Source: an uncultured Candidatus Thioglobus sp. (GTDB taxonomy: Bacteria; Pseudomonadota; Gammaproteobacteria; PS1; Pseudothioglobaceae). Taken from it: a DNA stretch of 64,000 nt. The notes under the pieces are model-generated. The model was not told the origin of the DNA and made no database searches. It saw only the letters and a list, made by a program, of their open reading frames with translations. The DNA lies in the NCBI GenBank assembly GCA_964577715.1, contig CAZOAA010000001.1:13396-77395 (forward strand), read 5' to 3'. Both the position numbers and the translations under genes were made by a program. Each line of letters starts with the position of its first letter. Position 1 is the stretch's first letter. Below, one piece after another: positions 43,086 through 64,000 of this stretch.

Positions 43086-44699
43086 TTGGTCAAAAAGTGT
43101 TATATATGCAGTAGTTTTAATGATTGTATAAAAGAAGGAGAGCAAAAAGTATTCATTATTAATGATTTTATTAGTCAGGCTTCAGTAAAAAAAGCTAGAT
43201 ATTTGACTGATAAGATTTTTCAAAAAAATGCTAAGTTTGTCAAAGAATGTCAGATAAACGGATATCAAATAACCTGGGCATGGTATAGCGAGGTATTTCA
43301 GTTTTGCATGAAGTATCTGGAGATCGAATCACTGATAAAAGAAATTAAATTATTAAAGGTTGACAATATTGTTGTCAAAGATATTGATTCTCAATATAGT
43401 AAAGTTCTGCAAACTTATTTTTTCGATAAAAATATTGATGTTCTTCCAGAAAAAAATGGAGTGATTTTTGCCAAAATAAAGCAATTTCTGTTTAATACTG
43501 CAATGCTGTTTTTTTCAATGCTGTCTATATTGTTTTTTTTAAGTAGGCCTGGTAGAAATATAGGTACATATACGGGTGATTTTGTATATAAAGGTTCTAA
43601 GTCTGATTTTAGATTAAATCACCTTTATGATAAATATAAAGAAAACAATATTAAATATGTAGAATTCATACGAAGCACCAAAATAAGAAACTTTTTTGTC
43701 AATATTGTTAAGCGTAGGCGGTTTGCAATTTATTACACTTCGCTAATATACTTTATAAACTTATTTACCAGAATATCAACAAACCCAAAACCAAAAGATT
43801 TTTATCAATCTGTATTATTCAAATATTACTACGATAATATTGTTCTATATAGAAGTGTGGTTGTTATTGAGAAAATTTTAAAAGTTTTAAAAATTGATAA
43901 ATTTGTGATAATTTCATTTTCTTCTCGTAGTGCGCCTCTGTCTTTGGCTGCAAAGTCTTTAGGGATAAAAACTATAGGCATTATGCACGGTTTGCAGCAA
44001 AAAGAATATGCAGTGTATGAGTTTATGGAAAGCTATAACCACAGTAATAAGATAGGGTGCGATAAATATGGCGTATGGAGTCCGCACTATTTAGCGTATT
44101 TTAAGAAATATTCTAAAATATCATACACTGATGCTTTTGAATATAGTGGATTGTTAAGACCGGTTAAAAATTTCCGTAAGAAAAAATTTAAAAGGCTAAA
44201 TCCTAAAAAAGTTAAAGTGTTATTGATTACCGAGCCTTTGGTGTCAGTAGATGAGATCATTCCTTATATTGAGTCATTAAGTAAGTATAACGATATTGAG
44301 ATAGGGATAAAGATAAGACCTATGTATCAGGATATGTTTTTTGAAAATCTTAAGAAAAAACTACCGATTGTTAATTCGTATAAAGTTTATGATGGAAAAA
44401 TAGAAGACGCAGTCAAAGGCTATGATGTTTTGTTAGGTAGTAATAGTACAGCAGTTATCGAAGCCAGTTTGTATGGAAAATTGTCAATATTGTTAAATAC
44501 AGTTAAGTTTGGTGATTATTTTGAAATAGATTCTCTTTTTCCTGGGCAAAATTTACTTGTAAATAATCCTGAATCACTATACGAAAATATATTGTTTCGA
44601 ATAAACAATGAGGATGCATTAGATACAATTGGCAAAATTCAATACAATTTCTTTGGCGATAATAAAGATGGCGCTGAGTGGATTGTTAAGCAACTGTAA
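43086..44699 (+). CDS. Hypothetical protein; orphan TagF/KpsC-like transferase candidate (TTG start)
   Basis: 537 aa. C-terminal VKGYDVLLGSNSTAVIEASLYGKLSILL. Confidence 0.35.
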   Translation: MVKKCYICSSFNDCIKEGEQKVFIINDFISQASVKKARYLTDKIFQKNAKFVKECQINGYQITWAWYSEVFQFCMKYLEIESLIKEIKLLKVDNIVVKDIDSQYSKVLQTYFFDKNIDVLPEKNGVIFAKIKQFLFNTAMLFFSMLSILFFLSRPGRNIGTYTGDFVYKGSKSDFRLNHLYDKYKENNIKYVEFIRSTKIRNFFVNIVKRRRFAIYYTSLIYFINLFTRISTNPKPKDFYQSVLFKYYYDNIVLYRSVVVIEKILKVLKIDKFVIISFSSRSAPLSLAAKSLGIKTIGIMHGLQQKEYAVYEFMESYNHSNKIGCDKYGVWSPHYLAYFKKYSKISYTDAFEYSGLLRPVKNFRKKKFKRLNPKKVKVLLITEPLVSVDEIIPYIESLSKYNDIEIGIKIRPMYQDMFFENLKKKLPIVNSYKVYDGKIEDAVKGYDVLLGSNSTAVIEASLYGKLSILLNTVKFGDYFEIDSLFPGQNLLVNNPESLYENILFRINNEDALDTIGKIQYNFFGDNKDGAEWIVKQL

Positions 44700-48672: not shown

Positions 48673-50469
48673 ATGTGTGGTATAGCTGGAATTATCCATA
48701 ACCGCGACGCAGATTATGCGCCTTATGTGGAAAGTATGAACAAGGTTCAGCACCATAGAGGTCCTGATGATAGGGGTGTTGTATCAGTCAAGGGTGCGAC
48801 TTTAGGGCATACCAGATTAAGTATTGTAGATATAGATTCTGGTAACCAGCCCATGTTTTCTAGCGGTCAAGATTCAGTAATCACTTTTAACGGAGAGATT
48901 TACGGATATAAAAAAATAAGACAAGATCTTAATTATGATTTTGCTACTAATAGTGATACTGAGGTCGTTATTGCTTTATACAAGCAGCATGGCATCGATA
49001 TGTTTTCTAAACTTACAGGCATGTTTGCTTTTGGTATTTGGGACTCAAAGAAGCAATCTCTTCTGTTAGGGCGTGATAGGTTTGGCGAAAAGCCTTTATA
49101 TTATGCTTATGGTGAGAATGGTGAGTTTATTTTTGCTTCTGAAATTAAAGCAATTATTACCACAAATTTAGTCAAGCCAAAAGTTTCAAAAAAAGCAATC
49201 AGTCATTATTTTAAATATCTTTATATAGATCCATTGGAAACGATTTATGAAAATATTTACATTTTAGAGCCGGGTTTTTTTCTCGAATTTGCTAATGACA
49301 AAGTTAACATTAATAGGTATTACAACTATCCAGCGACACAAGATGCATCGATAGATGATGCTGTAAATATATTCAGGGAGAAGTTTGAAAAATCTGTTGA
49401 GAATCAATTAGTAGCGGATGTTGATGTCGGTGCTTTTTTAAGTGGGGGGTTGGATTCTAGCACCATAGTTGCCGTTGCGAGCAAATACAAGGCAAATTTA
49501 AAAACTTTCTCGTTTGGTTTTGAGGGATCAAAAAGTGAGTTGAGTTATGCAAGAGAAATTGCAAAAAAATACAACACTGACCATTATGAGTTGTTTGCCA
49601 GAAATATAGATATTGCAGAAGTGTTACTTAAAATGGCAGAAGTTTATGATGAGCCTTTTGCTGACTCATCGAATATCCCGACATATTTAATTTCTAAGTT
49701 AGCCGGAGAGCATTCTAAAGTTATTCTAACAGGTGATGGTGCGGATGAGTTACTTGGAGGGTATGAATGGTGGTATTCTGCGCTTTTAGGCGTTGGAAAT
49801 CCTCACAATGTTGTTAAAGAGGTGGTTTTGAAGGTTTTAGCAAAAAGTTTTTTTAAGGGAAGCAATATAAATGCAAATAGGTTGAAATACGGAAGAAAGT
49901 ATTCGACAGTAAAACAAGCGCATACAAACCGACCAACTTTTTTTACTGATAAAGATGTTAAGGATTTGCTTGATATAGATAATGACGACATTAGAAGCTA
50001 TATTTTTAAGGAAGAAAATACTATTAATGATGCCTTAAATATGGATTTGCAAGAGTATATGGCCGGAGATATTTTGGTTAAAACTGACAGAGCATCTATG
50101 GCTAATTCGCTAGAACTGAGATCGCCTTTTCTTGATGCAGATTTCGCATCATTTTGTATTTCATTGCCACACAGCTTAAAAATAAACAGTAATTCAGATA
50201 AGTTAATTTTAAGAAAAGCATACCAAGACATGTGGACCGAAAGTATTAGAAATAGAAACAAACAAGGTTTTGGATCTCCGGTTAATAAATGGCTAAAACA
50301 AAAAAATGTTCAAGCATTAAAAGACATATATTTCAATCAGTGTAGAAATGTGTTTTCGTGTATTTCTTTTGATGTTGCCAAACAATTCTTTTATAAAGAC
50401 AATTACCAGACTTGGGCATTATTGGTATTGTCTATCTGGTTTGAAAAGAATGCGAGTGATATTAAATGA
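48673..50469 (+). CDS. AsnB-type glutamine-hydrolysing amidotransferase (asparagine synthase family)
   Basis: N-terminal nucleophile MCGIAGI. PP-loop SGGLDSS. 598 aa. Confidence 0.88.
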   Translation: MCGIAGIIHNRDADYAPYVESMNKVQHHRGPDDRGVVSVKGATLGHTRLSIVDIDSGNQPMFSSGQDSVITFNGEIYGYKKIRQDLNYDFATNSDTEVVIALYKQHGIDMFSKLTGMFAFGIWDSKKQSLLLGRDRFGEKPLYYAYGENGEFIFASEIKAIITTNLVKPKVSKKAISHYFKYLYIDPLETIYENIYILEPGFFLEFANDKVNINRYYNYPATQDASIDDAVNIFREKFEKSVENQLVADVDVGAFLSGGLDSSTIVAVASKYKANLKTFSFGFEGSKSELSYAREIAKKYNTDHYELFARNIDIAEVLLKMAEVYDEPFADSSNIPTYLISKLAGEHSKVILTGDGADELLGGYEWWYSALLGVGNPHNVVKEVVLKVLAKSFFKGSNINANRLKYGRKYSTVKQAHTNRPTFFTDKDVKDLLDIDNDDIRSYIFKEENTINDALNMDLQEYMAGDILVKTDRASMANSLELRSPFLDADFASFCISLPHSLKINSNSDKLILRKAYQDMWTESIRNRNKQGFGSPVNKWLKQKNVQALKDIYFNQCRNVFSCISFDVAKQFFYKDNYQTWALLVLSIWFEKNASDIK

Positions 50470-51496: not shown

Positions 51497-52765
51497 ATGT
51501 TGAATGCAATTGCACCACTAATCGCCATCGGGTATTTTTTATTTTTTATAAAAAATAACAAGCTTAATCCTCCTTTAGTTGGGCTAATATTCTTATCTTT
51601 CTTGTTTTTTGCAACCAACTATTCACACTATGGTTTAGAAGTCGATATTTATCGATATTTGCATAGATTTATAGGGGCAATAATTGCAGTTTCCTTAGTT
51701 GTTAAAATCATTAAACAAAAAATACCAATCTATAAAGACCCTGTTGCTATTCTTCTAAGTTTGTTCTTAATGGTATTGTTGTTAAGTTCTGTAGGTAATG
51801 ACTTAAACTTGCCGCACTATACTCATTATGTGAGAAATTTTATTTTTATTGGCTGTATAGTGATGTATTTGTATTTGCAGCTTGATTCAGAAGACAAGTT
51901 AGGCGAGCTTTATAGGCTTGTTATTGGATTAACAGCTATTCTTGCTTTTTTTGTTTTAATTGAGGTTTTTCAATCAGAGTGGAGTAGAACTCAATTGTTT
52001 TATTCCAATCCGAATTATTTAGGTTATGCATTATTGCCTGGATTTATTTTAAGTATTTATAGCAAAATAAAATACAAGTGGTTTTTTGTTGTTTCAATAT
52101 TGATTGCGATTTTTGCCACAGGTTCAAATTCTGCAGAAATTGGTGTTATATTTGCTATATTGACACTTGCTATAAGTCATAGAAATCAAATAAATAAAGT
52201 TCACATATTCATAGCAAGTGTTTTAGTTGTTGTATTTGGCATGTTTTTTAATAAGATTGTTTTAAATCTGGATATTAACTCTACTCGTTATGCATTAAGC
52301 AAAATTGCTATAAATGCCTTTGAAGAAAATCCAGTTAATGGCATAGGCTATGGTCAGTTTAGAACCAAGCTTATCAATTATATTGATAATGATGTGTTAA
52401 GTTTAGATAACCATGAAATCAATGATGTGGTATTAAGTTATGATAACAGTCTCAGTGATAAATATTTAAGGAGTCGGGGCATAGATAGATACTTAGAAAA
52501 AATGACCCACAGTGATTTATTGACAATAATTTCTGAATTGGGTCTTTTGGGTGTTTTGTTTGTTTTCTGGGTTTTTTATAGATTATATTTTTCTCTAAAA
52601 AGAATTAAATTAAATTGTAATAATGCATACTTTTTATCTATAAGTCTTATCGGCGCATCATTATTGTTTTCACTATTTCATAACAATTTAACATCTTTTG
52701 TTTTTTGGTTTGTTCTACTGCTTCCTTTTATAATTATTCGAAATATTGAAAAAACACAATTATGA
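51497..52765 (+). CDS. O-antigen polymerase/ligase-like (Wzy_C-type) membrane protein
   Basis: 422 aa polytopic protein with one larger loop (residues about 270-330) between hydrophobic blocks. Confidence 0.55.
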   Translation: MLNAIAPLIAIGYFLFFIKNNKLNPPLVGLIFLSFLFFATNYSHYGLEVDIYRYLHRFIGAIIAVSLVVKIIKQKIPIYKDPVAILLSLFLMVLLLSSVGNDLNLPHYTHYVRNFIFIGCIVMYLYLQLDSEDKLGELYRLVIGLTAILAFFVLIEVFQSEWSRTQLFYSNPNYLGYALLPGFILSIYSKIKYKWFFVVSILIAIFATGSNSAEIGVIFAILTLAISHRNQINKVHIFIASVLVVVFGMFFNKIVLNLDINSTRYALSKIAINAFEENPVNGIGYGQFRTKLINYIDNDVLSLDNHEINDVVLSYDNSLSDKYLRSRGIDRYLEKMTHSDLLTIISELGLLGVLFVFWVFYRLYFSLKRIKLNCNNAYFLSISLIGASLLFSLFHNNLTSFVFWFVLLLPFIIIRNIEKTQL

Positions 52766-53925
52766 AGATCTGCTATGTTCTGCCCCAATACTATAAAAAC
52801 AGCGCAGAGAATTTTTATCATATTGTTAACTTTTTAAATAAGCTTGGGGAAAAAGTTGAGCTCTATGTTATTGTTGAGAGAAGTGATACAGAAGTTGTCA
52901 TTGATAGTGCCAAACAAATTTTTTTATTAAAACCACAAACTCATCTTTTTAACATATCAAGATTTTTTCAATTAATAAAAATTTATTTTCTTCTTTATAG
53001 AAAAGGAATAAATTTATTTTTTATTCGAGCTTCATTGACTGGTGTTTTGCCAATGATTTTCGCAAATAGATTAATAAATTTCAATCGTGCCCAAGTTGTC
53101 TTTTGGAGTTGTGGGCAAGATGTTGTTCCGTTATCCTTTAGACCAACAAAAAAGAATTTAAAAAGGCTTTTGTCAAAATTTTTATCTAAGGTAGTTTTTA
53201 AAGGTATTAATCACTTGGCTACTGGCCCAGAGATTATGTCTGACTACTATCATAATCACTATGGCATTGGTCAAAGCAAGATTATTACACTTTATAATGA
53301 CATTTCTCCTGAGAGATTTTACCCAATCAAAAAACCCAAAGAAAAATCCCAGCTAAAGCAAGAATTGTTAGGTGCAGATAAAAAAGTTATGCTTTTTGTG
53401 CATACTTTTAATCGGTGTCGTGGAACAGATCTGCTACCTGCGATTGCTAAAAAGATTAAAGAATTAAATATGGATGCAATGGTTGTTGCCATTGGAAGAG
53501 ATGGAGATTATTCTGAGAAACTGAATGCGGAGACAGTGTCCAAAGGCCTGACAGGCTATTTGTTAAATTTAGGAGAAGTTGCAAATCGAAAAATCGAAAA
53601 ATATTACCAATTGGCAGATTTATTCTTAATGCCATCCAGAGGTGAGGGTTTTCCAAGAGTGTTATTAGAATCTATGGCATGTGGCTGCCCGCCATTATCG
53701 TTTGATGTCGGAGGCGTGAAAAATATTTTGCCAGAAGATACGCTGGATGATTTAGTTATATCTTCAATTGAAGACAGTAAGTTTATAGATCGAAGTCTTG
53801 AGATTATTGATAATAAGAAGTTGTTATCACAACTGTCTAACTCAGTTTTAGAGAAGGTTAAAACATATGAAACACAGAATATTGTTGATATGTATGTTGA
53901 GCAATTAGATAGAATTAACAAGTAA
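52762..53925 (+). CDS. GT4-family glycosyltransferase
   Basis: MPSRGEGFPRVLLESMACGCPPLSFDVGGVKNIL. Confidence 0.85.
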   Translation: MKICYVLPQYYKNSAENFYHIVNFLNKLGEKVELYVIVERSDTEVVIDSAKQIFLLKPQTHLFNISRFFQLIKIYFLLYRKGINLFFIRASLTGVLPMIFANRLINFNRAQVVFWSCGQDVVPLSFRPTKKNLKRLLSKFLSKVVFKGINHLATGPEIMSDYYHNHYGIGQSKIITLYNDISPERFYPIKKPKEKSQLKQELLGADKKVMLFVHTFNRCRGTDLLPAIAKKIKELNMDAMVVAIGRDGDYSEKLNAETVSKGLTGYLLNLGEVANRKIEKYYQLADLFLMPSRGEGFPRVLLESMACGCPPLSFDVGGVKNILPEDTLDDLVISSIEDSKFIDRSLEIIDNKKLLSQLSNSVLEKVKTYETQNIVDMYVEQLDRINK

Positions 53926-54611
53926 TGATTGTATCGATACATCAACCGAACTTTTTCCCGTGGATGGGGTATTTTGACAAAATTAACAGAAGTGATGTAT
54001 TTGTATTACTAACATCGTCCACGCGCTCAAAAAATGATAAATATCTAACAAGAACAAAAATATTGAATAATAATTCGACTTCACAATATCTATCAATTCC
54101 ATTAGGCACAAAACAAATACCAATCAATCATCTTAAGATGCCAATAGATAAAACATGGAAACAAAAGTCACTAAATAGAATCCAAGAATCCTATAGAAAC
54201 GCAAATTTTTTTGATGAGGTTTATGATGATATTGAAAGGCTTTTTATGTTTGAGTCTGAACAATTCTCGGACTATAGCGCCAACATAATTAATTTTTTTA
54301 TCACTAAGTTTAATATTGATACTAAACTGTATGTAGATACCAGTTTTAATCAGGATTTTGGCACGTCAAATCAAAGAAATATTGCAATTTGTAATAAGCT
54401 AGGGGCGGATATCTATTTGTCAGGCAATGGTGCAAAAACCTATAATGACGAGCGACTCTATAAACAAAACTCAATCAAACTAATGTATCAAAACTATACG
54501 CCTGTATCTTACCAACAGGCTTCTAATGATTTTATTGCTGGCCTTTCGATTATTGATGCTATTTTTAACTGTGGCTATAAAGCTACAGAGAGCTTAATTA
54601 AACAACCTTAA
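53925..54611 (+). CDS. WbqC-family protein (function unknown)
   Basis: N-terminal IHQPNFFPWMGYFDKI is the family signature. 228 aa. Confidence 0.8.
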   Translation: MIVSIHQPNFFPWMGYFDKINRSDVFVLLTSSTRSKNDKYLTRTKILNNNSTSQYLSIPLGTKQIPINHLKMPIDKTWKQKSLNRIQESYRNANFFDEVYDDIERLFMFESEQFSDYSANIINFFITKFNIDTKLYVDTSFNQDFGTSNQRNIAICNKLGADIYLSGNGAKTYNDERLYKQNSIKLMYQNYTPVSYQQASNDFIAGLSIIDAIFNCGYKATESLIKQP

Positions 54612-54613
54612 AA

Positions 54614-55651
54614 ATGAAAGAGCAGTTAGTTGCAAAGCCGTTCCAAAAATTTACCAATAGCGAGTGGGATAAGTTACTAGATGATTTTAATGCAACAGTT
54701 AATTACACCTCGTGGTTTATTGATTACCTTGAGGTTTTAAATACCCAAACCCAAATAAAAAATTTTACATTTACACTTATTGATAATACTAAGGTTGTTG
54801 CTATCGTTCCCCTATATATTGAAAAAATTAGTAATCGTTGGCAGATGTCTACAGGACAGGAGCCAATTTTTGCCCCAATCTTTTCAAAAAACATATCTAA
54901 TGATAGGGTTTTGGACTATTATCAATTTATTATTGAGCAAATAGACGACACCGCTAATAAACATAAATGTATTTTGGCGCGTTTTCAGTATTCTCCCTTG
55001 TTGCACACTAAATTTAGTCGTAATTATTTTGTGGAGCTAGGATATAAAAAACACATTCTACACCCTGATTGGTATATGTTTAAGGCTAGTAATAGTTATG
55101 TGATTGATTTAAAACAGCCAAAAGACCAACTATTTAAAAAAATTCGAAAGGGTCATAGAGCCAATATTAACCGAACAAAAAAGATTGCGAAGTTGATTAT
55201 ATTGGATGCTTCAACCTTTGATCAAAAAATATTCAAACAATACATTGAATTGTTTTATCAAGTAAAAGGTAACAAAAGAACCAAAGAAGCATTTGCACAA
55301 GATTTAAATGCAATTAAATTTGGACATGAGATTGTGATGATATGCGAATATAATGAATTGTTAGTTGGTGCGATAGCAATACATATACACAATAAAAAAG
55401 CAAGATATAATTCATCTATACAACTTTATGGACTTAGTAAAGATTTATATCCAAATCATTTTTTATTAAGTTCGGCAATTAGTTATTTAAAAGATAGGGA
55501 ATTTGAGTTATTTGAAATTGGAGAACAGGTGCAAGAAAGTAATTTATACAAGGTTTCAAAAAAAGAAAAGAACTTATCGCATTTTAAGTCTGGCTGGGGT
55601 GGCGATTTACATCCTTGCATGAAAGCTCAAAGGGAGTTTATGCATGTTTAA
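54614..55651 (+). CDS. FemAB-like / GNAT-fold acyl(aminoacyl)transferase
   Basis: 345 aa. KIRKGHRANINRTKK motif and tandem-GNAT length typical of FemAB-family proteins. Confidence 0.45.
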   Translation: MKEQLVAKPFQKFTNSEWDKLLDDFNATVNYTSWFIDYLEVLNTQTQIKNFTFTLIDNTKVVAIVPLYIEKISNRWQMSTGQEPIFAPIFSKNISNDRVLDYYQFIIEQIDDTANKHKCILARFQYSPLLHTKFSRNYFVELGYKKHILHPDWYMFKASNSYVIDLKQPKDQLFKKIRKGHRANINRTKKIAKLIILDASTFDQKIFKQYIELFYQVKGNKRTKEAFAQDLNAIKFGHEIVMICEYNELLVGAIAIHIHNKKARYNSSIQLYGLSKDLYPNHFLLSSAISYLKDREFELFEIGEQVQESNLYKVSKKEKNLSHFKSGWGGDLHPCMKAQREFMHV

Positions 55652-56306
55652 AACGGATAAAAGATTAAAAATTTTAGCAATAGGTGCACATGGAGATGAT
55701 ATTGAATTAGCCTGCGGTGGAACGCTTGCAAAAGCCACAGAAAATAACCACGAAGTTGAAATGGTATTGGTGACTGGTAATGGCTCAAGTGATCATAATG
55801 ATGTAACAATTAGAGCAGATGATGTAGCTGAACAAGAGGCAAAAACTGCAGCCGAAGTTTTAGGTGTTTCAAACTTGCATATTCTTGGTTATCAAGATAC
55901 CTGTGTGCCATACTCGGTTGATTTGGTTGCTGAGCTGGATGGGATTATTAGTAGATTTGAACCGGACATTATCTTCACTCATTTTGTATTTGATACACAT
56001 CAAGATCATATTCGCACTGCACACTCTACTATTTCAGCAGCTAGACGTCAAAACACAATTTTTTTATATGAACCTATCAACCCATCGGGGCAAGGGTATG
56101 TGCCGTTTAGGCCACAAACATATGTAGACATTACCAAAACCATAGATAAAAAAGTCGAGTCGTTAAAGGCGCACAAATCCCAATACGAAAAATATACAGA
56201 TAAATGGATAGATGCTGTTGTTGCTAGGGCGCAATTTAGAGGGTTCGAGATGGGAGTTAATTATGCTGAGTGTTTCGAGGTGGTGCGCTCTGAGCTAAGG
56301 TTGTAG
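55644..56306 (+). CDS. PIG-L/LmbE-family N-deacetylase
   Basis: ILAIGAHGDDIELACGGTLAK and THQDH metal-binding motifs. Confidence 0.82.
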   Translation: MFKTDKRLKILAIGAHGDDIELACGGTLAKATENNHEVEMVLVTGNGSSDHNDVTIRADDVAEQEAKTAAEVLGVSNLHILGYQDTCVPYSVDLVAELDGIISRFEPDIIFTHFVFDTHQDHIRTAHSTISAARRQNTIFLYEPINPSGQGYVPFRPQTYVDITKTIDKKVESLKAHKSQYEKYTDKWIDAVVARAQFRGFEMGVNYAECFEVVRSELRL

Positions 56307-56312
56307 AAAAGC

Positions 56313-57029
56313 ATGTCTGAGTGGAGAAAACAAGCCATAACGCTATTTAACGAGTTGGTGTCAGAGCACCAGATTAAATCAGTTTTTGAGGTTGGTTGTG
56401 ATGATGCGGGAATATCGAGGCAATTGGCAAAAAGGTATCCTAATATTTATTTTGATGGTATTGACTATAGAGAAGATAAAATCAACGAAGCCAATCAGTT
56501 ACGCAAACAAGATAATTTGACCAACACCCATTTCTCCTTTGATTATTTTTTAGATATCAAAAATATTGACAAGCAATATGACGTGGTAATTTTTACTGAG
56601 GTTTATGAGCATTTGGTTGCCGAAAATCAAATATACGCACTTAGACTGTTAGGTAATTTATTATCTGACAATGGGTTGATTATTTTTACTTGTCCAAATG
56701 GAGACTATTTATTGTCGTATTTAGAAAAGGGAAAGGACTTTAATAGTAGATATGACCAAGGTTTTTTTGATAACATGCACCAAACAGAGCACTGGTTGGA
56801 ACCAACACATAAGGAGCTAAAAAAAATATTTATATCATTAGGTTTTGATATTGTAAAGTCTGGGTATTTTAATTTGCCCAAAAGACGTTTTCTATTAATA
56901 GAAAAAGTTGAATTAATATTCAATAAAATCCCGTTTTTTAGAGATTGGCTATTTAAAAGCCAGTATCTACTGGCGCGAAAAAATCCCAATAGCCCTCTGT
57001 TAAAGCGACTAAATCTTTATGCAAATTGA
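56313..57029 (+). CDS. Class I SAM-dependent methyltransferase
   Basis: VFEVGCDDAG, DVVIFTEVYEHL, LSDNGLIIFTCP. Confidence 0.75.
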   Translation: MSEWRKQAITLFNELVSEHQIKSVFEVGCDDAGISRQLAKRYPNIYFDGIDYREDKINEANQLRKQDNLTNTHFSFDYFLDIKNIDKQYDVVIFTEVYEHLVAENQIYALRLLGNLLSDNGLIIFTCPNGDYLLSYLEKGKDFNSRYDQGFFDNMHQTEHWLEPTHKELKKIFISLGFDIVKSGYFNLPKRRFLLIEKVELIFNKIPFFRDWLFKSQYLLARKNPNSPLLKRLNLYAN

Positions 57030-58093
57030 GAGGTTTATTGCACATGATCTATAATAGGCCTTTAAAAGATTATTATGTCGATTACGACAGTAAGAATATC
57101 GGTAGCTACGTTCCATTTTTACTTGGCCGGAACGCGATAAATTATGTGATCGAGTCGTTATCAGTCAAATCAATTTTGTTGCCTGCCTTTATATGCCCTA
57201 TGGTTGTTGATATTTTTAAGCATCATAAGATTGAGGTTTTTTTTTATGATGCGCTGGATAAAAAATTATCTATTCCAATTGATGCGATAGTAAATGAACT
57301 GAGCAAAATAAAAAGCAATAATCAATTATTTTTTCTATGGCATGATTATCTTGGCGTTGTTGGCGATATGCCAATTGAAATATACGATTATTTATCAACA
57401 AATAATATAAAAGTGATTATTGATGCCACACATTCCTTGCCCAATGAAAAATATAAGTCTGAAGTTGTGATTTATGGCTATAGAAAATTATTGAATGAAC
57501 CTTTTGGCGCGCTTTTAAAGATGGAATCCGACCCTGGCATTATTGCAAAAAATAACAAGCCTTGGTTAAAATTATGGATCATTTTTTTAGTGTATAAATT
57601 AAAGTCAAATTTGTTATATACATTTGGTTTCTTTAGTAATATCACTATTGTCAGTAAAATACTAAAAAGGCTTTCTGTAATTGACAAAACTTTAAGCTTT
57701 GATAGCAACAATCTTTTTTTAATAGATAGTTTTAAGCATAATAAAATTCTTGCTAAATATAAGAGGCTGGATTATCGAAAGATTTGTTCGCAAAGACAAA
57801 AAAATTTTCTCAGATATGCTGAAAAACTGTCCATGCCAATCGGTTTAGACAAAAATCACATATCATGTCCATATGGGTTTCCATTTTTTACTAAAAACAG
57901 TAGAGCTTTAAGAAAAAAATTGTGGGATGGTAATATCCATTCATTTATTTTGTGGAAAGACCTTCACAATGATATTCCTAGCAAAAATAAAGAGTGCGCA
58001 CATTTTTTATCAAATTCCATTATTGTGTTGCCAGTCAACCATGATTTGTCAAGTAAAGATATTGACAAAGTTATAGAGGTGGTTAGTGGCTGA
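57026..58093 (+). CDS. Divergent DegT-like PLP-fold protein (aminotransferase-like)
   Basis: GRNAINYVIESLSVKSILLPAFICPMVV, IIDATHSL, YGYRKLL (possible PLP-Lys). Confidence 0.4.
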   Translation: MRGLLHMIYNRPLKDYYVDYDSKNIGSYVPFLLGRNAINYVIESLSVKSILLPAFICPMVVDIFKHHKIEVFFYDALDKKLSIPIDAIVNELSKIKSNNQLFFLWHDYLGVVGDMPIEIYDYLSTNNIKVIIDATHSLPNEKYKSEVVIYGYRKLLNEPFGALLKMESDPGIIAKNNKPWLKLWIIFLVYKLKSNLLYTFGFFSNITIVSKILKRLSVIDKTLSFDSNNLFLIDSFKHNKILAKYKRLDYRKICSQRQKNFLRYAEKLSMPIGLDKNHISCPYGFPFFTKNSRALRKKLWDGNIHSFILWKDLHNDIPSKNKECAHFLSNSIIVLPVNHDLSSKDIDKVIEVVSG

Positions 58094-59240
58094 TTACAAT
58101 ATTTGTTTGGTTAGTCGATCAATCTACCCCTATCCAATTGAAAAGCACACTCAAAATATGCAAACATTTGAGGGTTGGTTGCGTTTTTTTAACAATGTTG
58201 TCGTTGTTTCTCAGTGTAGATCTAAAACAATTAAAAAAAGTCAGTATAAAAATATTTTTGGCACCTTGCTGCCACTTATCAAGAATAGGTATATCAACGT
58301 TGTGTATTTTAATATTTATGGCTTAATTCAAGCATTAAGACTTGATAAAATTTATCGATTCGATATTTTTCAAGCAAGCGACGCAGGTGGGGCTTTTTTA
58401 GCATATCTAGCAAGCCGTGCAACTGGAGCTAAGTTTGTTTTTGAGGTGCAGGGCGATATTTTTGGTTATCCAAACCATGTAGGCGGAAGAATACATTCTT
58501 CTTTGGTTAAATTTTTCAGCAAATTGATTGTTAAAAAAGCAGATTATGTCCGGATTGTATCCCCCTTTTTGTATGATTATTTAGATAAATATAACATCAG
58601 CAGATCAAAAGTATTTCTTGTTCCCCCGAGGTGTGATAGTTTGTTGTTTAATCCAAACAATGCGGGCGATATGCCAGATGCCCTAAGAAATAATCAATTT
58701 AATATTTTATTTGTGGGAAATCTGCTTATCGCCAAAGGTGTTGATATTTTATTAGAGGCATTTGCATTAATTGTTGCTGAAAATGCTAATGTCGGTTTGG
58801 TATATATTGGCGATGGCGAGGAATTGGATCAACTTAGGTCAAGAGCCAAAGAGTTGCATGTAAGTGAAAAAGTTTTTTTTGAAGGTAGGGTAGATTACAA
58901 ACGCATTGTGGATTATATGCACTACGCCAATATTTTGGTTTTACCCTCAATAGAAGAGGGTGTTGGGCGAGTTCTACTTGAAGCGATGTCAATGAAACTG
59001 CCTATAGTTGCCAGCAATGTTGGCGGAATACCATTGGTTGTTGATGATAATATAAGTGGGTTATTATTTGAAGTTGGTGACATAAGATCTTTAAAGAAAA
59101 AAGTTCTTATGCTGATTAACAATCAAGATTTTTCCAAACATTTGGTCAAAAATGCCAATATTAAATTTATGAAAAATTATGATTACGAAGTTTCAATGGA
59201 TAAGTTTATTAAGATGTATCAATCAATATTGGAGTCATAA
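58086..59240 (+). CDS. GT4-family glycosyltransferase
   Basis: VLPSIEEGVGRVLLEAMSMKLPIVASNVGGIPLVV. Confidence 0.85.
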   Translation: MADYNICLVSRSIYPYPIEKHTQNMQTFEGWLRFFNNVVVVSQCRSKTIKKSQYKNIFGTLLPLIKNRYINVVYFNIYGLIQALRLDKIYRFDIFQASDAGGAFLAYLASRATGAKFVFEVQGDIFGYPNHVGGRIHSSLVKFFSKLIVKKADYVRIVSPFLYDYLDKYNISRSKVFLVPPRCDSLLFNPNNAGDMPDALRNNQFNILFVGNLLIAKGVDILLEAFALIVAENANVGLVYIGDGEELDQLRSRAKELHVSEKVFFEGRVDYKRIVDYMHYANILVLPSIEEGVGRVLLEAMSMKLPIVASNVGGIPLVVDDNISGLLFEVGDIRSLKKKVLMLINNQDFSKHLVKNANIKFMKNYDYEVSMDKFIKMYQSILES

Positions 59241-61361: not shown

Positions 61362-64000
61362 GTGTGCGGTGTTGCTGGTCTGATTAACTTCAAAAATGAT
61401 TATATTGAAACCATAAAAAAAAGCCTTTATCACCGAGGGCCAGACGCACAAACACATTATCAATATAAAAATCTTAGTTTAATACACACACGTTTATCTA
61501 TACAAGATGTTAAGCATGGCGACCAGCCTTTTATTATTGGCAACCATGTGATTGTATTTAATGGCGAGATATACAACCATCTATCACTTAGAAGAAAGGT
61601 AAAAAGACACCAATTTAAAACCCAATCGGATACTGAAACCCTTTTGGCTTTATATATTGAATATGGATCTAAGGCTCTGGAGATGTGTGATGGTATGTTT
61701 GCATTTGTTATTTTTAATAAAGAAAATAACTCTATAACCCTTGGTAGAGATCGAATTGGTAAAAAACCACTTTATATACACAAAAATAAAAATAAAATTT
61801 TTATCGCCAGTGAGCTTAATGTTTTTCTTCAGGTATTGCCAGATTTATCTATTAATGAACAGGCAATAGAGTCTTATCTGCGATGTGGTTTTTTCTATTC
61901 TGGAATCACACCTTATAAAAATACACAGGAGATATTACCAGGCCATGTTTATCAAATTGATATTCACTCAATGGTAATTAAAAAACAATGTTATTTTGAT
62001 ATAGCTAAACAATACAACACCAAAATATCGATTAATCATAATGAGGCTGTTGAAGAGTTAGATAGTCTTTTACGAAAAAGTATTATAAATCGACTAATTT
62101 CTTCCGATCTTAAAGTTGGTGCTTTTCTTAGTGGCGGTGTCGACAGCTCGTTAATTACTGCAATAGCAAGTGAATACACAGATAACTTGAAAACATTTAC
62201 GGTTAAATTTGATAAGGGTATTGATGAGTCTTATCTTGCTAGAAAAACCGCACAACTTCTTTCAACACAACACCATGAACTTGGTATCGCAATGGATTTA
62301 AAAAATGATGTGGAAAATATACTTACTTCCTATGGCGAGCCATTTATGGATAGTAGTGCAATCCCTAGTTATTATGTAAGTCGTGAGGCAAAAAAACACC
62401 TGACAGTTGTGCTTAATGGCGATGGCGCAGATGAGTTATTTGCTGGATATAGACGCTATGTTCCAAGTTATAACAATTGGCACAGTTACGCAAAAAAAAT
62501 TCATTTAGTCAGAAAAATTCTCCCCATTCCTAAAGATAAACAAACTTACTATAATTATTTTTATAGATTGTTGATGATGTCAAATAAGGAAGGGTTGGAT
62601 TATTATCTTTCTTCAACCACAGACATATTCGAAGATTTTTACAGATTCAATACCAATAATACAGTTCTGCTAGAAATAGAGTCGCTGATAAAGCGTATTA
62701 ACAATCAAAATATTTCTAATTTATCCAAATCATTGATTATGGATTCCAAACTTATTTTGCCAAGTGATTTGTTAAAAAAAATGGATATTGCGACTATGGC
62801 AAACTCGGTTGAGGCAAGGAGCCCTTTTCTGAGTAAATATTTACTAGAATGGGTGCCGAAATTACCTGATCGTGAAAAGATCAGTGGTATAAATACAAAA
62901 TATATTTTAAGGGAATTGCTTAAGAAATATTCTCTTAACTATCTTGCTTTAGAGCCTAAAAAAGGTTTTGAGGTGCCTCTAAATTTTTGGGTCAACAATG
63001 ATTTGAAAGAAAATATTTATGACAGAGTGGGGAACAATTCTTATGCTACTCAATTTATAGATACTGCATTTGTTAACAAGCTATTAAGTAATAAGGAGTA
63101 TTTTCCACAAGAGAAACGTGCAAAGATGCTATGGAGCTTATATGCATTAGAAGTTTGGCACAGTAATTATCTACATTGTGCCAAAAATATCAAAACAGAT
63201 GTGCCGATTCTCTCATCAACTCGAGTAAACATATTATTGCTAACAACTGGTTTAGGTTTGGGCGGCGCTGAAAGAGTTGTGCTTGATATTTGTAAGAATA
63301 TTAATAAAAATAAATTCAAACCAATGGTTATTAGTATTTCAAGTCAGGATGAGATGTTAGATGATTTTATCAATTCAAAAATAGACGCAGAAGTGCTAAA
63401 CCATAAAAAAACCATAACCAACTTTATAGTTTCGATACGACATATTTATAAAAAAGTAAAAATAAATGACATAAAAATTATTCATGTGCATATGTTCCAT
63501 GCATTGTTGATCTCCAGTGTCATTAAATTTATTCGACCATCAGTAAAAATTATTTTTACACCTCATAATAGCTTTAAAGCAATGAAGATAAGGCGCTGGT
63601 TACTTTGGATGTTAAAACCATGGCGTGATTTAGATACCGTTTTTTCAAATGGTGCACTTAGTTATTTTCATAAATTAAACAACAAAATTATTCCGAACGC
63701 CATTAATATTTATGAATACAACCCTAACCCTAACCCTAACTCTCTTTTCACTTTTATTATTATTGGCCGTTTAGAAAAAATGAAAAACCATCAGTTTTTA
63801 ATTTCTGTAGTTAGTCGATTAAAGCAATATAACTTTCAGTTGCTCATTGTGGGATCTGGCATTCTTGAGAAGTCATTAAAAATACAGGTCAAGTCTTTAA
63901 ATTTAGATGACAGAATAAAATTTTTAGGTGCGAGAAGGGATGTGCCAGATTTGTTAGAAAAATCTGATTGTTTGTTGCTGCCTTCGCTTTGGGAGGCTTT
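61362..64000 (+). CDS. AsnB-type amidotransferase fused in frame to a GT4 glycosyltransferase domain (3'-partial, runs off the window)
   Basis: This ORF is not in the supplied track because it has no stop in the window. GTG at 61362 gives MCGVAGLINF (Ntn Cys). PP-loop SGGVDSS at about 62130. I translated the frame by eye to 63998 and found no stop. At about 63220 it continues as RVNILLLTTGLGLGGAERVVLDI, then IIIGRLEKMKNH ... LLLPSLWEA, i.e. GT4 N- and C-domain motifs. Confidence 0.7.
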   Translation, partial: MCGVAGLINFKNDYIETIKKSLYHRGPDAQTHYQYKNLSLIHTRLSIQDVKHGDQPFIIGNHVIVFNGEIYNHLSLRRKVKRHQFKTQSDTETLLALYIEYGSKALEMCDGMFAFVIFNKENNSITLGRDRIGKKPLYIHKNKNKIFIASELNVFLQVLPDLSINEQAIESYLRCGFFYSGITPYKNTQEILPGHVYQIDIHSMVIKKQCYFDIAKQYNTKISINHNEAVEELDSLLRKSIINRLISSDLKVGAFLSGGVDSSLITAIASEYTDNLKTFTVKFDKGIDESYLARKTAQLLSTQHHELGIAMDLKNDVENILTSYGEPFMDSSAIPSYYVSREAKKHLTVVLNGDGADELFAGYRRYVPSYNNWHSYAKKIHLVRKILPIPKDKQTYYNYFYRLLMMSNKEGLDYYLSSTTDIFEDFYRFNTNNTVLLEIESLIKRINNQNISNLSKSLIMDSKLILPSDLLKKMDIATMANSVEARSPFLSKYLLEWVPKLPDREKISGINTKYILRELLKKYSLNYLALEPKKGFEVPLNFWVNNDLKENIYDRVGNNSYATQFIDTAFVNKLLSNKEYFPQEKRAKMLWSLYALEVWHSNYLHCAKNIKTDVPILSSTRVNILLLTTGLGLGGAERVVLDICKNINKNKFKPMVISISSQDEMLDDFINSKIDAEVLNHKKTITNFIVSIRHIYKKVKINDIKIIHVHMFHALLISSVIKFIRPSVKIIFTPHNSFKAMKIRRWLLWMLKPWRDLDTVFSNGALSYFHKLNNKIIPNAINIYEYNPNPNPNSLFTFIIIGRLEKMKNHQFLISVVSRLKQYNFQLLIVGSGILEKSLKIQVKSLNLDDRIKFLGARRDVPDLLEKSDCLLLPSLWEA
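63720..63740 (+). repeat. (AACCCT)x3.5 hexanucleotide tandem repeat inside the GT4 domain
   Basis: aac cct aac cct aac cct aac encodes NPNPNPN between the two Rossmann halves of the GT4 domain. Confidence 0.9.

What the first reader, a model, noticed from the sequence alone, without database searches (positions are those of the whole stretch)
53925..58093. WbqC / FemAB-like / PIG-L deacetylase / methyltransferase / DegT-like cassette: possible aminoacyl decoration of an amino sugar
Seen, as five contiguous genes:
- WbqC family (IHQPNFFPWMGYFDKI).
- A 345-aa FemAB-like double-GNAT protein (KIRKGHRANINRTKK).
- A PIG-L/LmbE deacetylase (AHGDDIELACGG, HQDH).
- A class I methyltransferase.
- A divergent DegT-like PLP-fold protein.

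Established:
- PIG-L enzymes remove N-acetyl groups from GlcNAc-type residues.
- FemAB-family enzymes transfer amino acids, usually from aminoacyl-tRNA, onto free amines.
- WbqC has no assigned biochemical function.

Inference: the cassette may act as a deacetylate-then-reacylate device, exposing a sugar amine and re-acylating it with an amino acid or other acyl group that is then methylated. It is also a handle for assigning a function to WbqC.
Basis: partly seen in the sequence, partly recalled or inferred. Interest (0 to 1): 0.6.

Follow-up and report, generated by a model that had tools for sequence, protein, structure and literature searches.

The report
Amino-sugar deacetylate-and-aminoacylate gene cassette
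Five tightly packed genes in a marine bacterium's surface-sugar locus most likely strip the acetyl group from an amino sugar and replace it with amino-acid-type groups; this is a new variant of a pathway already shown in oral Bacteroidetes, and it gives a testable job to the uncharacterised WbqC family.

Summary
One correction: the last gene probably starts at ATG 57044, not TTG 57026.

- **WbqC, PIG-L, methyltransferase:** clear Pfam members.
- **"FemAB-like" protein:** no Pfam hit, but its AlphaFold model (pLDDT 95) matches FemX best (TM 0.70). The 16 best PDB matches are all aminoacyl-tRNA-dependent transferases.
- **"DegT-like" protein:** a very divergent DegT relative that keeps the Asp...Lys pattern of PLP binding.

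WbqC–FemAB-like–PIG-L is the invariant core in about 35 marine metagenome contigs. The methyltransferase and the DegT-like gene are sometimes lost or replaced. The same five families also cluster, in another order and at 21–30% identity, in a distant gammaproteobacterium.

It is also not new: the Wbp/Vim pathway (VimE deacetylase, FemAB-like VimA, AsnB-like WbpS) does exactly this.

The E. coli O121 O-antigen cluster adds a point. By elimination, WbqC plus a small GNAT are left to make the N-acetylglycyl group on Qui4N. WbqC is therefore probably itself an amino-acid-adding enzyme, and this cassette holds two such enzymes. Nothing has been tested biochemically.

Verdict: a new variant of a known kind, of moderate interest.

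The parts
52762..53925 (+). GT4 glycosyltransferase directly upstream. It is the likely installer of the HexNAc residue that the cassette then edits.
   Evidence: PF00534 at 4e-24. Conserved directly upstream of WbqC in the related marine contigs. The role is inferred from established GT4 + PIG-L pairs (MshA/MshB, BshA/BshB, PIG-A/PIG-L) and from the Streptomyces GT4-WbqC-LmbE operon (PMC10404621).
53925..54611 (+). WbqC family protein, 228 aa. Proposed role: an amino-acid-adding (N-aminoacylating) enzyme for a sugar amine.
   Evidence: PF08889 at 7.3e-54. AlphaFold model pLDDT 96.3 with a Rossmann-like beta-alpha-beta layout. No significant PDB match; the best E-value is 0.026. Family-invariant residues are H6 Q7 P8 W13 G15 K19, Y164 G167 G169 Y173, and S208 D211. 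Function is inferred from the E. coli O121 cluster and from neighbourhood statistics.
54614..55651 (+). FemX-like tandem-GNAT transferase, 345 aa. Proposed role: an aminoacyl-tRNA-dependent aminoacyl transferase acting on a sugar amine or on the first amino acid.
   Evidence: TIGR04421 at 6.4e-14 over the full length, below the family cut-off. Model pLDDT 94.9. Foldseek top 16 hits are FemX, FemA, aminoacyl-PG synthases/MprF and Sbb17/Sba18, with E down to 3e-14 and TM 0.70. Family-invariant K325, W328, G329 and R178; nearly invariant F324 and N320.
55644..56306 (+). PIG-L/LmbE-type zinc de-N-acetylase, 220 aa.
   Evidence: PF02585 at 2.5e-25. Nearest NCBIfam model is BshB1 at 7.5e-30, below the cut-off. 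AHGDD and HQDH motifs present. This is the most conserved gene of the cassette, 59-88% identity across relatives.
56313..57029 (+). Class I SAM-dependent methyltransferase, 238 aa. An accessory component whose target atom is unknown.
   Evidence: PF13847 at 1.5e-12, PF08242 at 3e-11. Absent in L034, L039, L043, L053 and the contig of P0005. Replaced by an unrelated ~235-aa class I methyltransferase in L008, L037 and L054.
57044..58093 (+). Divergent DegT-type fold-type-I PLP enzyme, 349 aa from the revised start. Proposed role: an aminotransferase that supplies a second sugar amine.
   Evidence: Direct PF01041 score is only 0.028. A family profile finds 3329 proteins at E<=1e-3; 33 of 39 sampled are PF01041. 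Invariant D127-A-x-H130 and R147-K148. Start revised from homologues. Fusions of this subfamily with an Acetyltransf_6 tandem GNAT (P0253) and with a GT4 (P0237) exist.
58086..59240 (+). GT4 glycosyltransferase directly downstream, overlapping the cassette's last gene by 8 nt.
   Evidence: PF00534 at 1.8e-40. Conserved in this position in relatives.
48673..50469 (+). AsnB-type amidotransferase in the same locus. A possible counterpart of WbpS (uronic acid to uronamide). It is context, not part of the five-gene block.
   Evidence: PF00733 at 2.5e-83. An AsnB-like gene also accompanies WbqC in E. coli O121 and VimA/VimE in the Wbp/Vim pathway (PMC7468200).

Best explanation
The block is an N-acyl editing module for an amino sugar of a Wzx/Wzy-type surface polysaccharide, in a small-genome marine gammaproteobacterium that is probably Thioglobaceae-like.

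**Proposed sequence (all steps inferred):**
1. A flanking GT4 installs a HexNAc residue.
2. The PIG-L zinc hydrolase removes its N-acetyl group.
3. The freed amine is re-acylated with an amino acid.

**Two candidate acylating enzymes:**
- WbqC, by analogy with the E. coli O121 pathway, where it is the only candidate for putting glycine on the 4-amino group of Qui4N.
- The FemX-like tandem GNAT, which most likely takes its amino acid from aminoacyl-tRNA, as FemX, VimA and Orf11/Sbb17 do.

**How the pieces may fit.** There are two amine makers (PIG-L and the DegT-like aminotransferase) and two amine acylators. One reading is that two different nitrogens are decorated, pairing PIG-L with WbqC and DegT-like with FemX-like. 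The other is that a dipeptidyl or capped aminoacyl group is built on one nitrogen. The methyltransferase is an optional finishing step.

**Shown here:** gene presence, family and fold assignments, conservation of the core, and the recurring pairings.

**Inferred only:** every chemical step, the donors, the acceptor sugar and the order of steps.
For: - **Fold.** The FemAB-like model has pLDDT 94.9. Its 16 best PDB matches are all aminoacyl-tRNA-dependent transferases, including Sbb17/Sba18 bound to the amino sugar streptothrisamine.
- **Catalytic residues.** F324 is nearly invariant and K325 invariant near the C-terminus. A basic helix at 176-190 carries invariant R178. This resembles the catalytic Lys305 of FemX, Phe328-Lys329 of DhpH-C, and the tRNA-binding helix described in PMC12945691.
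- **Conserved core.** WbqC sits directly upstream and PIG-L directly downstream of the FemAB-like gene in every informative close relative, about 35 contigs.
- **Distant recurrence.** The same five families cluster in a distant gammaproteobacterium (L106). The order there is WbqC-PIG-L-MT-DegT-like-FemAB-like, at only 21-30% identity. FemAB-like and WbqC also stay within one gene of each other in L046 and L048, at 31-37% identity.
- **WbqC neighbours.** Of 62 WbqC genes from 23 families of Pseudomonadota, 27 have a co-directional DegT or PIG-L immediately adjacent, and 39 have one within four genes. Pfam tallies: DegT in 13/63 upstream neighbours, PIG-L in 15/62 downstream neighbours.
- **E. 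coli O121 cluster.** The genes are tviB, an epimerase, rfbB, rfbA, a DegT (VioA), WbqC, a 140-aa GNAT, wzx, a GT2, an O-acetyltransferase, wzy, asnB and two GT4. The O121 unit carries N-acetylglycyl on Qui4N (PMC3210612 ref. 147; PMC7685785). WbqC and the GNAT are the only genes left for that group.
- **Fusions.** GNAT+WbqC (P0158) and Acetyltransf_6+DegT-like (P0253) exist as single proteins.
- **Published precedents.** In the Wbp/Vim pathway, swapping vimA between species changes the sugar-linked amino acid from Ser to Gly (PMC7468200). A Streptomyces operon reads ProRSx-GT4-WbqC-LmbE-tRNAProX-MurG (PMC10404621).
Against: - No biochemical or glycan-structure data exist for this organism or for any member of this FemAB-like family.
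- The FemAB-like protein fails Pfam FemAB (PF02388) and scores far below the TIGR04421 cut-off, 51.9 against 250 bits. Tandem GNATs of similar shape, such as MshD and the clavulanate tandem GNAT, use acyl-CoA.
- Equivalence of K325 to FemX Lys305 rests on position only; no superposition was done.
- WbqC has no significant structural relative and no secondary Pfam signal, so its chemistry is deduced by elimination from one E. coli cluster.
- Most of the roughly 50 related contigs come from one lineage with conserved synteny, so they are not independent. PIG-L adjacency to WbqC is concentrated in 4 families.
- No oxidoreductase or dehydratase that would give the DegT-like enzyme a keto-sugar lies in the cassette.
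- Another cassette noted in this scan pairs deacetylase and WbqC with a sulfotransferase (e1-4345841). WbqC chemistry may therefore not always involve an amino acid.
Confidence: 0.6

Rival explanations
1. Acyl-CoA capping. WbqC alone adds the amino acid. The tandem GNAT is the functional counterpart of the small GNAT that follows WbqC in E. coli O121, or of MshD in mycothiol synthesis. It would N-acylate the new alpha-amine from acetyl- or acyl-CoA and would not use aminoacyl-tRNA.
For: - The tandem GNAT occupies the slot directly after WbqC, where O121 has a GNAT N-acetyltransferase.
- A GNAT+WbqC fusion exists (P0158).
- Five of 28 family members weakly match Acetyltransf_6 (PF13480), and none matches Pfam FemAB.
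- CoA-using tandem GNATs appear lower in the fold list (2wpw, VipF).
Against: - The 16 best fold matches are all aminoacyl-tRNA users, at TM 0.55-0.71. CoA-using tandem GNATs score 0.34-0.55.
- The conserved F-K dyad and the basic helix fit FemX/DhpH-C.
- VimA, which also looked like an 'N-acetyltransferase' by sequence, determines which amino acid is added.
Confidence: 0.2
2. Small-molecule glycoside. The genes make a mycothiol- or bacillithiol-like soluble metabolite (GT4 + PIG-L + ligase + tandem GNAT = MshA/B/C/D logic), not a polysaccharide decoration.
For: - The PIG-L protein's nearest NCBIfam model is the bacillithiol deacetylase BshB1, at 7.5e-30.
- A GT4 sits directly upstream, and a tandem GNAT is present as in MshD.
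- WbqC gives weak hits to the HUP/class I aaRS-type fold that MshC also has.
Against: - The BshB1 score of 104 bits is far below the 182.5 cut-off.
- The cassette lies between a Wzy_C polymerase/ligase-like gene and four more GT4 genes, inside a 64-kb locus with a Wzx-type flippase. It keeps that context in relatives.
- The cassette is patchy: absent from 60 relatives of the host. That pattern is typical of surface-antigen genes and not of a core redox buffer.
Confidence: 0.07
3. No joint function. The five genes are independent tailoring genes that merely sit together in a mosaic polysaccharide locus.
For: - Polysaccharide loci are mosaics.
- The methyltransferase and the DegT-like gene come and go.
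- Most supporting contigs are from one lineage.
Against: - The same five families co-cluster at 21-30% identity with the order rearranged (L106).
- WbqC pairs repeatedly with PIG-L or DegT across 10-14 families.
- Fusion proteins link the families.
- Overlapping stop/start junctions run through the block.
Confidence: 0.08

Closest known systems
Wbp/Vim pathway of Porphyromonas gingivalis and Tannerella forsythia (VimE, VimA, WbpS; PMC7468200)
   Same: - A sugar N-acetyl group is removed and an amino acid (Ser or Gly) is put on the exposed amine by a FemAB-related transferase.
- An AsnB-type amidotransferase lies in the same pathway, and one lies in this locus too.
   Different: - The deacetylase here is PIG-L/LmbE type, not CE4.
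- The transferase does not match VimA's family, TIGR03019, at E<=1; its only NCBIfam relative is TIGR04421.
- No WbpA/B/E/D genes are adjacent.
- WbqC, a methyltransferase and a DegT-like enzyme are additional.
- The product here presumably decorates a repeat-unit polysaccharide, not a protein-anchoring linker.
E. coli O121 / Shigella dysenteriae type 7 O-antigen genes for 4-(N-acetylglycyl)amino-4,6-dideoxyglucose (VioA, WbqC, GNAT)
   Same: - A WbqC family member sits next to an amine-generating enzyme and a GNAT-fold enzyme.
- An AsnB-like gene and GT4 genes are in the same cluster.
   Different: - In O121 the amine comes from a canonical DegT transaminase on a dTDP-sugar, and the partner is a 140-aa single GNAT.
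- Here the partner is a 345-aa FemX-like tandem GNAT and the amine source is a PIG-L deacetylase.
- WbqC identity between the two was not measured directly; both match PF08889.
FemX/FemABX and Orf11/Sbb17/Sba18 aminoacyl-tRNA-dependent transferases (PDB 1NE9, 4II9, 6SNR, 9WQX)
   Same: - Tandem-GNAT fold of the same size, without the FemA coiled-coil arm.
- Conserved aromatic-Lys dyad near the C-terminus.
- Orf11/Sbb17 aminoacylate an amino sugar amine.
   Different: - About 10-13% sequence identity.
- No Pfam FemAB match.
- The acceptor is unknown and the donor untested.
Mycothiol and bacillithiol pathways (MshA/B/C/D; BshA/B/C)
   Same: The order of chemistry is the same: a GT4 adds GlcNAc, a PIG-L family enzyme deacetylates it, an amino acid is ligated to the amine, and a tandem GNAT caps it.
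   Different: - Those pathways make soluble thiols with a cysteine ligase.
- Here the context is a polysaccharide locus.
- The candidate ligase is WbqC, and no family-level match to MshC, BshC or MshD was found.
Streptomyces tRNA-ProX operon (ProRSx-GT4-WbqC-LmbE-tRNAProX-MurG; PMC10404621)
   Same: The GT4-WbqC-PIG-L triad, in that case physically linked to a dedicated aminoacyl-tRNA synthetase and tRNA.
   Different: - No FemAB-like, methyltransferase or DegT-like gene there.
- No tRNA or synthetase gene here.
- The authors interpret the tRNA as a mistranslation device, not a sugar-aminoacylation donor.

Membership tests
WbqC-like family (Pfam PF08889) | Score above the Pfam gathering threshold over the whole domain | tested here: met
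   183.3 bits against a cut-off of 21.3, profile positions 1-216 of 218.
PIG-L / LmbE de-N-acetylases (PF02585) | Pfam match plus the zinc/catalytic motifs AHxDD and HxDH | tested here: met
   89.9 bits against a cut-off of 28.2. AHGDD at residues 15-19 and HQDH at 119-122.
FemABX aminoacyl-tRNA-dependent transferases | Tandem-GNAT fold superposable on FemX | tested here: met
   Foldseek against FemX 1XE4/1NE9/4II9 gives E about 3e-14, probability 1.00, TM 0.70/0.72. The top 16 hits are all aminoacyl-tRNA-dependent enzymes.
FemABX aminoacyl-tRNA-dependent transferases | Sequence membership (Pfam FemAB PF02388, or an NCBIfam FemAB model above its cut-off) | tested here: not met
   No PF02388 hit for the protein or for any of 28 relatives. 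TIGR04421 scores 51.9 bits against a cut-off of 250. No PDB sequence hit even with a profile.
FemABX aminoacyl-tRNA-dependent transferases | Catalytic lysine preceded by an aromatic residue (FemX Lys305; DhpH-C Phe328-Lys329) | tested here: inconclusive
   K325 is invariant and F324 nearly invariant in 28 relatives. They lie in the C-terminal GNAT domain at a comparable distance from the C-terminus. No residue-level superposition was available.
FemABX aminoacyl-tRNA-dependent transferases | Use of aminoacyl-tRNA as donor | not testable with these tools
   Needs an enzyme assay with an RNase control.
DegT/DnrJ/EryC1/StrS sugar aminotransferases (PF01041) | Score above the Pfam gathering threshold | tested here: not met
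   14.1 bits against a cut-off of 19.8, C-terminal 32 residues only.
DegT/DnrJ/EryC1/StrS sugar aminotransferases (PF01041) | Homology demonstrable through intermediate sequences, with the PLP-binding Asp and Schiff-base Lys kept | tested here: met
   The family profile finds 3329 proteins at E<=1e-3. Of 39 sampled, 33 are PF01041 (best 2e-41). D127 and K148 are invariant in the family, and D134 and K155 are invariant in the wider alignment. Assigning these two columns to the PLP Asp and Lys rests on my knowledge of DegT motifs.
Class I SAM-dependent methyltransferases | Pfam match above threshold | tested here: met
   PF13847 at 47.8 bits against 27; PF08242 at 44.4 against 30.
Wbp/Vim pathway | CE4 deacetylase (VimE) plus a VimA-type transferase (TIGR03019), with WbpA/B/E/D genes | tested here: not met
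   The deacetylase is PIG-L type. No TIGR03019 hit at E<=1. No Wbp genes in the block. Only the AsnB-like component is shared. It works like this pathway but is not a member.
Bacillithiol / mycothiol biosynthesis | BshB/MshB equivalog score; a BshC or MshC ligase present | tested here: not met
   BshB1 at 104.3 bits against 182.5; MshB at 13.8 against 224. No ligase model matched any cassette protein.

The most novel reading that the evidence does not exclude
WbqC is a previously unrecognised class of amide-forming enzyme that aminoacylates sugar amines. It has a Rossmann-like fold with no solved relative and may be a stripped-down class I aminoacyl-tRNA-synthetase-like (HUP-type) core. Its donor could be ATP plus amino acid, or aminoacyl-tRNA.

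In this cassette it would work in series with a FemX-like tRNA-dependent transferase, so that a short, ribosome-independent peptide (optionally N-methylated) is built on a polysaccharide amino sugar. This would be a cell-surface analogue of peptidoglycan cross-bridge synthesis, found in Gram-negative marine bacteria.
Probability: 0.2. Interest if true: 0.8.

Novelty: new variant of a known kind. Interest (0 to 1): 0.5.

Why it matters
Many O-antigens and capsules carry amino acids on their amino sugars. Examples are N-acetylglycyl, N-acetylalanyl, N-acetylseryl and allothreonyl groups in E. coli, Aeromonas and Pseudoalteromonas (PMC7685785, PMC3210612). The enzymes that attach them are almost all unknown.

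WbqC was found in 109 of 401 sampled Pseudomonadota genomes. It also occurs in Bacteroides, Caulobacter and Streptomyces, and it has no assigned activity and no solved structural relative.

This cassette, read together with the O121 cluster, yields concrete one-enzyme assays: WbqC on dTDP-Qui4N, and the FemX-like protein on a de-N-acetylated acceptor. These could assign function to two uncharacterised families. They could also show whether charged tRNAs are diverted to surface-glycan decoration in abundant marine bacteria. The principle itself is already established by the Wbp/Vim pathway, which limits the surprise.

Tried and rejected
- **PDB sequence searches.** WbqC, the DegT-like protein and a 28-sequence FemAB-like profile all returned nothing at E<=10.
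- **Relatives of the FemAB-like family.** A back-translated pattern scan of GTDB species genomes found none. A search of 60 relatives of the host genome also found none. Relatives in isolate and MAG genomes (L106, L136) turned up only later, through WbqC neighbourhoods.
- **WbqC fold.** Foldseek of the WbqC model against the PDB gave no significant match. Weak hits to the TagD cytidylyltransferase (probability 0.77, E 0.07), universal stress protein and Tyr/Met-tRNA synthetases hint at a HUP-type nucleotide-binding fold, but they are below any threshold I would rely on. A permissive Pfam scan of 53 WbqC proteins showed no recurring second family.
- **tRNA genes.** I looked for tRNA genes beside WbqC, as in the Streptomyces operon. 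There were none in the window, and only three unrelated tRNAs in 60 WbqC loci.
- **Other E. coli serogroups.** A DNA-level search for wbqC found only the O121 type, in 13 of 5426 genomes. The correlation with O114, O63 and other amino-acid-bearing O antigens could therefore not be tested.
- **Unavailable paper.** The 2007 paper on dTDP-Qui4N synthesis in S. dysenteriae 7 (PMC2168959) is not held. I could not check what its authors proposed for WbqC.
- **Rejected idea.** I considered that the 373-aa protein downstream of WbqC-PIG-L-DegT in family f60 was a FemAB-like protein. It is a WecA/MraY-type transferase, PF00953.

Full report
**1. What is there**

The window is one long, all-plus-strand glycan locus of about 32% G+C. 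It carries a Wzx-type flippase (40951-42303), a Wzy_C-type gene (51497-52765), two AsnB-type amidotransferases and many GT4 genes.

The five ORFs of the finding lie exactly where stated, between two GT4 genes. Their junctions are -1, +2, -8 and +6 nt, then -4 or +14 nt, depending on the start chosen for the last gene. All four quoted peptide motifs are present.

Family assignments:

| Gene | Evidence |
|---|---|
| WbqC | PF08889, 7e-54 |
| PIG-L | PF02585, 2.5e-25; AHGDD and HQDH motifs present |
| Methyltransferase | several class I models above threshold |
| 345-aa protein | no Pfam family at E<=0.01 |
| 355-aa protein | no Pfam family at E<=0.01 |

The two proteins without a Pfam family were the uncertain part of the observation.

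**2. The 'FemAB-like' protein**

Its only library hit is a full-length but sub-threshold match to NCBIfam TIGR04421, 'FemAB family protein' (6.4e-14; 51.9 bits against a cut-off of 250).

The family is rare:
- 62 clusters among 5.8 billion proteins, nearly all from marine metagenomes.
- None in 60 relatives of the host genome.

An AlphaFold model built on 28 relatives is confident (pLDDT 94.9, pTM 0.91). Its 16 best PDB matches are all aminoacyl-tRNA-dependent transferases:
- Weissella and S. aureus FemX (E about 3e-14, TM 0.70)
- FemA
- alanyl- and lysyl-phosphatidylglycerol synthases/MprF
- Sbb17/Sba18, solved with the amino sugar streptothrisamine

CoA-dependent tandem GNATs come later, with TM 0.34-0.55.

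The family keeps K325 invariant and F324 and N320 nearly invariant close to the C-terminus. It also has a basic helix at 176-190 with invariant R178. A recent review names Lys305 as the only reactive residue at the FemX active site, names Phe328-Lys329 and Asn325 as important in DhpH-C, and describes a positively charged tRNA-binding helix on GNAT domain 2 (PMC12945691). The match of these residues is by position only; I could not superpose the structures.

Formal sequence membership in FemABX is not met either.

**3. The 'DegT-like' protein**

Twelve homologues all start at the residue encoded by ATG 57044, so the TTG at 57026 is probably not the start.

The direct Pfam score is insignificant. 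A profile of the 12 sequences, however, finds 3329 proteins at E<=1e-3 among 1.84 billion representatives. Of 39 sampled hits, 33 are PF01041 DegT members, best 2e-41.

The family keeps D127-A-x-H130 and R147-K148. An Asp and a Lys are the only invariant polar residues across the wider alignment. From my knowledge of DegT enzymes, these correspond to the PLP-pyridine Asp and the Schiff-base Lys.

The protein is thus a true but very divergent DegT-type PLP enzyme. Two fusions of this subfamily turned up: one to an Acetyltransf_6 (FemAB/CelD-like) tandem GNAT (P0253, 752 aa) and one to a GT4 (P0237).

**4. Co-occurrence**

Fifty-three marine metagenome loci encode relatives of the FemAB-like protein.

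In every close relative whose contig reaches far enough (about 35), WbqC is directly upstream and PIG-L directly downstream. The wider order Wzy-GT4-WbqC-FemAB-PIG-L-(MT)-DegT-like-GT4-GT4 is kept. This is largely one lineage, so it counts as one observation. The variation within it is still informative:

| Variant | Loci |
|---|---|
| Methyltransferase absent | five contigs |
| MT plus DegT-like replaced by an unrelated ~235-aa class I methyltransferase | L008, L037, L054 |
| Both absent | L051 |

The core is WbqC-FemAB-like-PIG-L.

Independent support comes from distant loci:
- L046 and L048 (FemAB-like 34-36%, WbqC 31-37% identical) keep the two genes within one gene of each other, in the reverse order.
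- L106, from a 4.1-Mb genome of the same class, has Hexapep-DegT-WbqC-PIG-L-MT-DegT-like-FemAB-like at only 21-30% identity to the window proteins.

In L106 the genes fall into adjacent pairs, WbqC with PIG-L and DegT-like with FemAB-like. The Acetyltransf_6+DegT-like fusion shows the same second pairing.

**5. WbqC**

WbqC is common. It was found in 109 of 401 sampled genomes of the phylum, and in the Caulobacter and Bacteroides thetaiotaomicron controls.

I fetched 62 WbqC genes from 23 families with their flanks and annotated their neighbours:
- The upstream neighbour is a DegT aminotransferase in 13 of 63.
- The downstream neighbour is PIG-L in 15 of 62.
- A co-directional DegT or PIG-L is immediately adjacent in 27 of the 62 (10 families) and within four genes in 39 (14 families).

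WbqC therefore habitually sits beside enzymes that create a free sugar amine.

The E. coli O121 O-antigen cluster is the clearest case. From galF to gnd it holds tviB, an epimerase, rfbB, rfbA, a DegT (VioA), WbqC, a 140-aa GNAT, wzx, a GT2, an O-acetyltransferase, wzy, asnB and two GT4 genes.

The O121 unit contains Qui4N carrying an N-acetylglycyl group (PMC3210612 citing Parolis 1997; PMC7685785). Every other gene has an obvious job, so WbqC and the GNAT remain for 'add glycine' and 'acetylate it'. The parsimonious split gives glycine addition to WbqC. This is an inference by elimination, not a demonstration. Earlier notes in this scan say the same proposal exists in the O121 literature, which I could not read.

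Two further links:
- A GNAT+WbqC fusion (P0158).
- A Streptomyces operon, ProRSx-GT4-WbqC-LmbE-tRNAProX-MurG (PMC10404621). It ties the same GT4/WbqC/PIG-L triad to a dedicated synthetase and tRNA.

Structurally, WbqC models with high confidence (pLDDT 96.3) as a Rossmann-like alpha/beta protein. It has no significant PDB relative. The weak hits to a cytidylyltransferase, a universal stress protein and class I synthetases are only a hint of a HUP-type nucleotide-binding fold. No second Pfam signal exists.

**6. Mechanism**

The published Wbp/Vim pathway (PMC7468200) shows the principle:
- VimE (CE4) is proposed to remove the 2-N-acetyl group.
- VimA (FemAB-related) determines whether Ser or Gly is attached. 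This was shown by an interspecies gene swap.
- An AsnB-like WbpS amidates the uronic acid.

Orf11 of the BD-12 pathway transfers glycine from Gly-tRNA to an amino sugar in vitro (PMC12945691).

By analogy, I propose the following. A flanking GT4 installs a HexNAc. GT4 plus PIG-L pairs are the rule in mycothiol, bacillithiol and GPI synthesis, which is established knowledge. PIG-L then exposes the amine, and WbqC and/or the FemX-like enzyme aminoacylate it.

There are two amine makers and two acylators, and they pair up in L106 and in the fusion protein. I therefore favour decoration of two nitrogens (PIG-L with WbqC, DegT-like with FemX-like). A dipeptidyl or capped aminoacyl group on one nitrogen is the alternative.

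Several points are open:
- The methyltransferase is optional and its target is unknown.
- No keto-sugar-forming enzyme lies in the block, which is a weakness of the DegT-like assignment.
- All chemistry is inferred.

**7. Rivals**

| Rival | Confidence | Main argument against |
|---|---|---|
| The tandem GNAT merely caps the WbqC-added amino acid from acyl-CoA, like the O121 GNAT or MshD | 0.2 | the fold ranking and the F-K dyad |
| A soluble mycothiol-like product | 0.07 | the polysaccharide context, sub-threshold BshB scores and patchy distribution |
| Unrelated neighbours | 0.08 | the rearranged distant cluster, the recurrent pairings and the fusions |

**8. Novelty and verdict**

It underrated WbqC, overreached on methylation and left the DegT-like enzyme unexplained.

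The cassette is a new variant of a known kind of pathway: PIG-L instead of CE4, a different FemAB-like family, and added WbqC and DegT-like enzymes. Other windows of this scan have reported similar WbqC/PIG-L/FemAB-like groupings, so the pattern is recurrent rather than unique.

Its main value is as a route to assigning activities to WbqC and to a FemX-like family by simple assays.

Noticed in passing
window 57026-57044: The last cassette gene is listed as starting at TTG 57026, but all 12 homologues begin at the residue matching ATG 57044 (MIYNR...). The annotated start is probably 18 nt too far upstream.
   Followed up: yes
L001 6896-9038 (ENA contig of 1.37 Mb, Campylobacterota-like context): Two tandem FemAB-like paralogues overlap by 8 nt: a 370-aa protein with a weak Acetyltransf_6 hit and a 345-aa protein 38% identical to the window protein. 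They sit in a housekeeping neighbourhood next to a Polysacc_deac_2 deacetylase, an AIR-synthase-like protein and MinD/MinE, with no WbqC or PIG-L.
   Followed up: partly
L129, L132-L134, L137, L143, L144, L147, L148 (genome family f60): A different conserved WbqC context, present in almost every genome of one ~2-Mb family: a PHP-domain protein (~520-590 aa), then WbqC, PIG-L, a canonical DegT, a WecA/MraY-type transferase (PF00953) and a YggS-like PLP protein.
   Followed up: partly
P0253, P0237, P0158 (database proteins): Three fusion proteins link the cassette's families: Acetyltransf_6 tandem GNAT + DegT-like (752 aa), DegT-like + GT4 (744 aa), and GNAT + WbqC (383 aa).
   Followed up: partly
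L008 1793-2509, L054 795-1529, L037 1363-1695: In three relatives the methyltransferase and DegT-like genes are replaced by one unrelated ~235-aa protein with a class I SAM motif (ILDIGCGCSYF). This looks like non-orthologous displacement of the methyltransferase.
   Followed up: partly
L019 9701-10069 and L055 799-1167: The methyltransferase gene is reduced to a 123-aa C-terminal remnant aligning to residues 115-237. It is probably a decaying gene.
   Followed up: no
L101 and L102 (genome G446, contig 11, 335-400 kb): Three WbqC genes lie within 65 kb of one chromosome, each with its own DegT partner. Two face each other across three ~700-aa genes, and one is followed by a DegT-like protein that matches the window's subfamily (A3 profile, 2e-12).
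   Followed up: no
window 61362-63998 and contigs of P0005/P0027: The in-frame AsnB + GT4 fusion that runs off the window end is conserved as a 966-968-aa protein in related contigs, so it is a real fusion gene.
   Followed up: partly
L046 6155-8017 and L048 1-1629: Large proteins without a Pfam family (620 aa and more than 542 aa) directly precede the FemAB-like gene in both distant loci. In L046 the protein follows a NeuB/CMP-transferase module. This resembles the orphan ~540-aa proteins of the window (for example 43086-44699).
   Followed up: no
NZ_CP193495.1 (E. coli 'O103 strain ML775'): A genome labelled O103 carries the O121-type wbqC/GNAT/DegT genes at 100% identity. Its serogroup label and its O-antigen genes disagree.
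   Followed up: no
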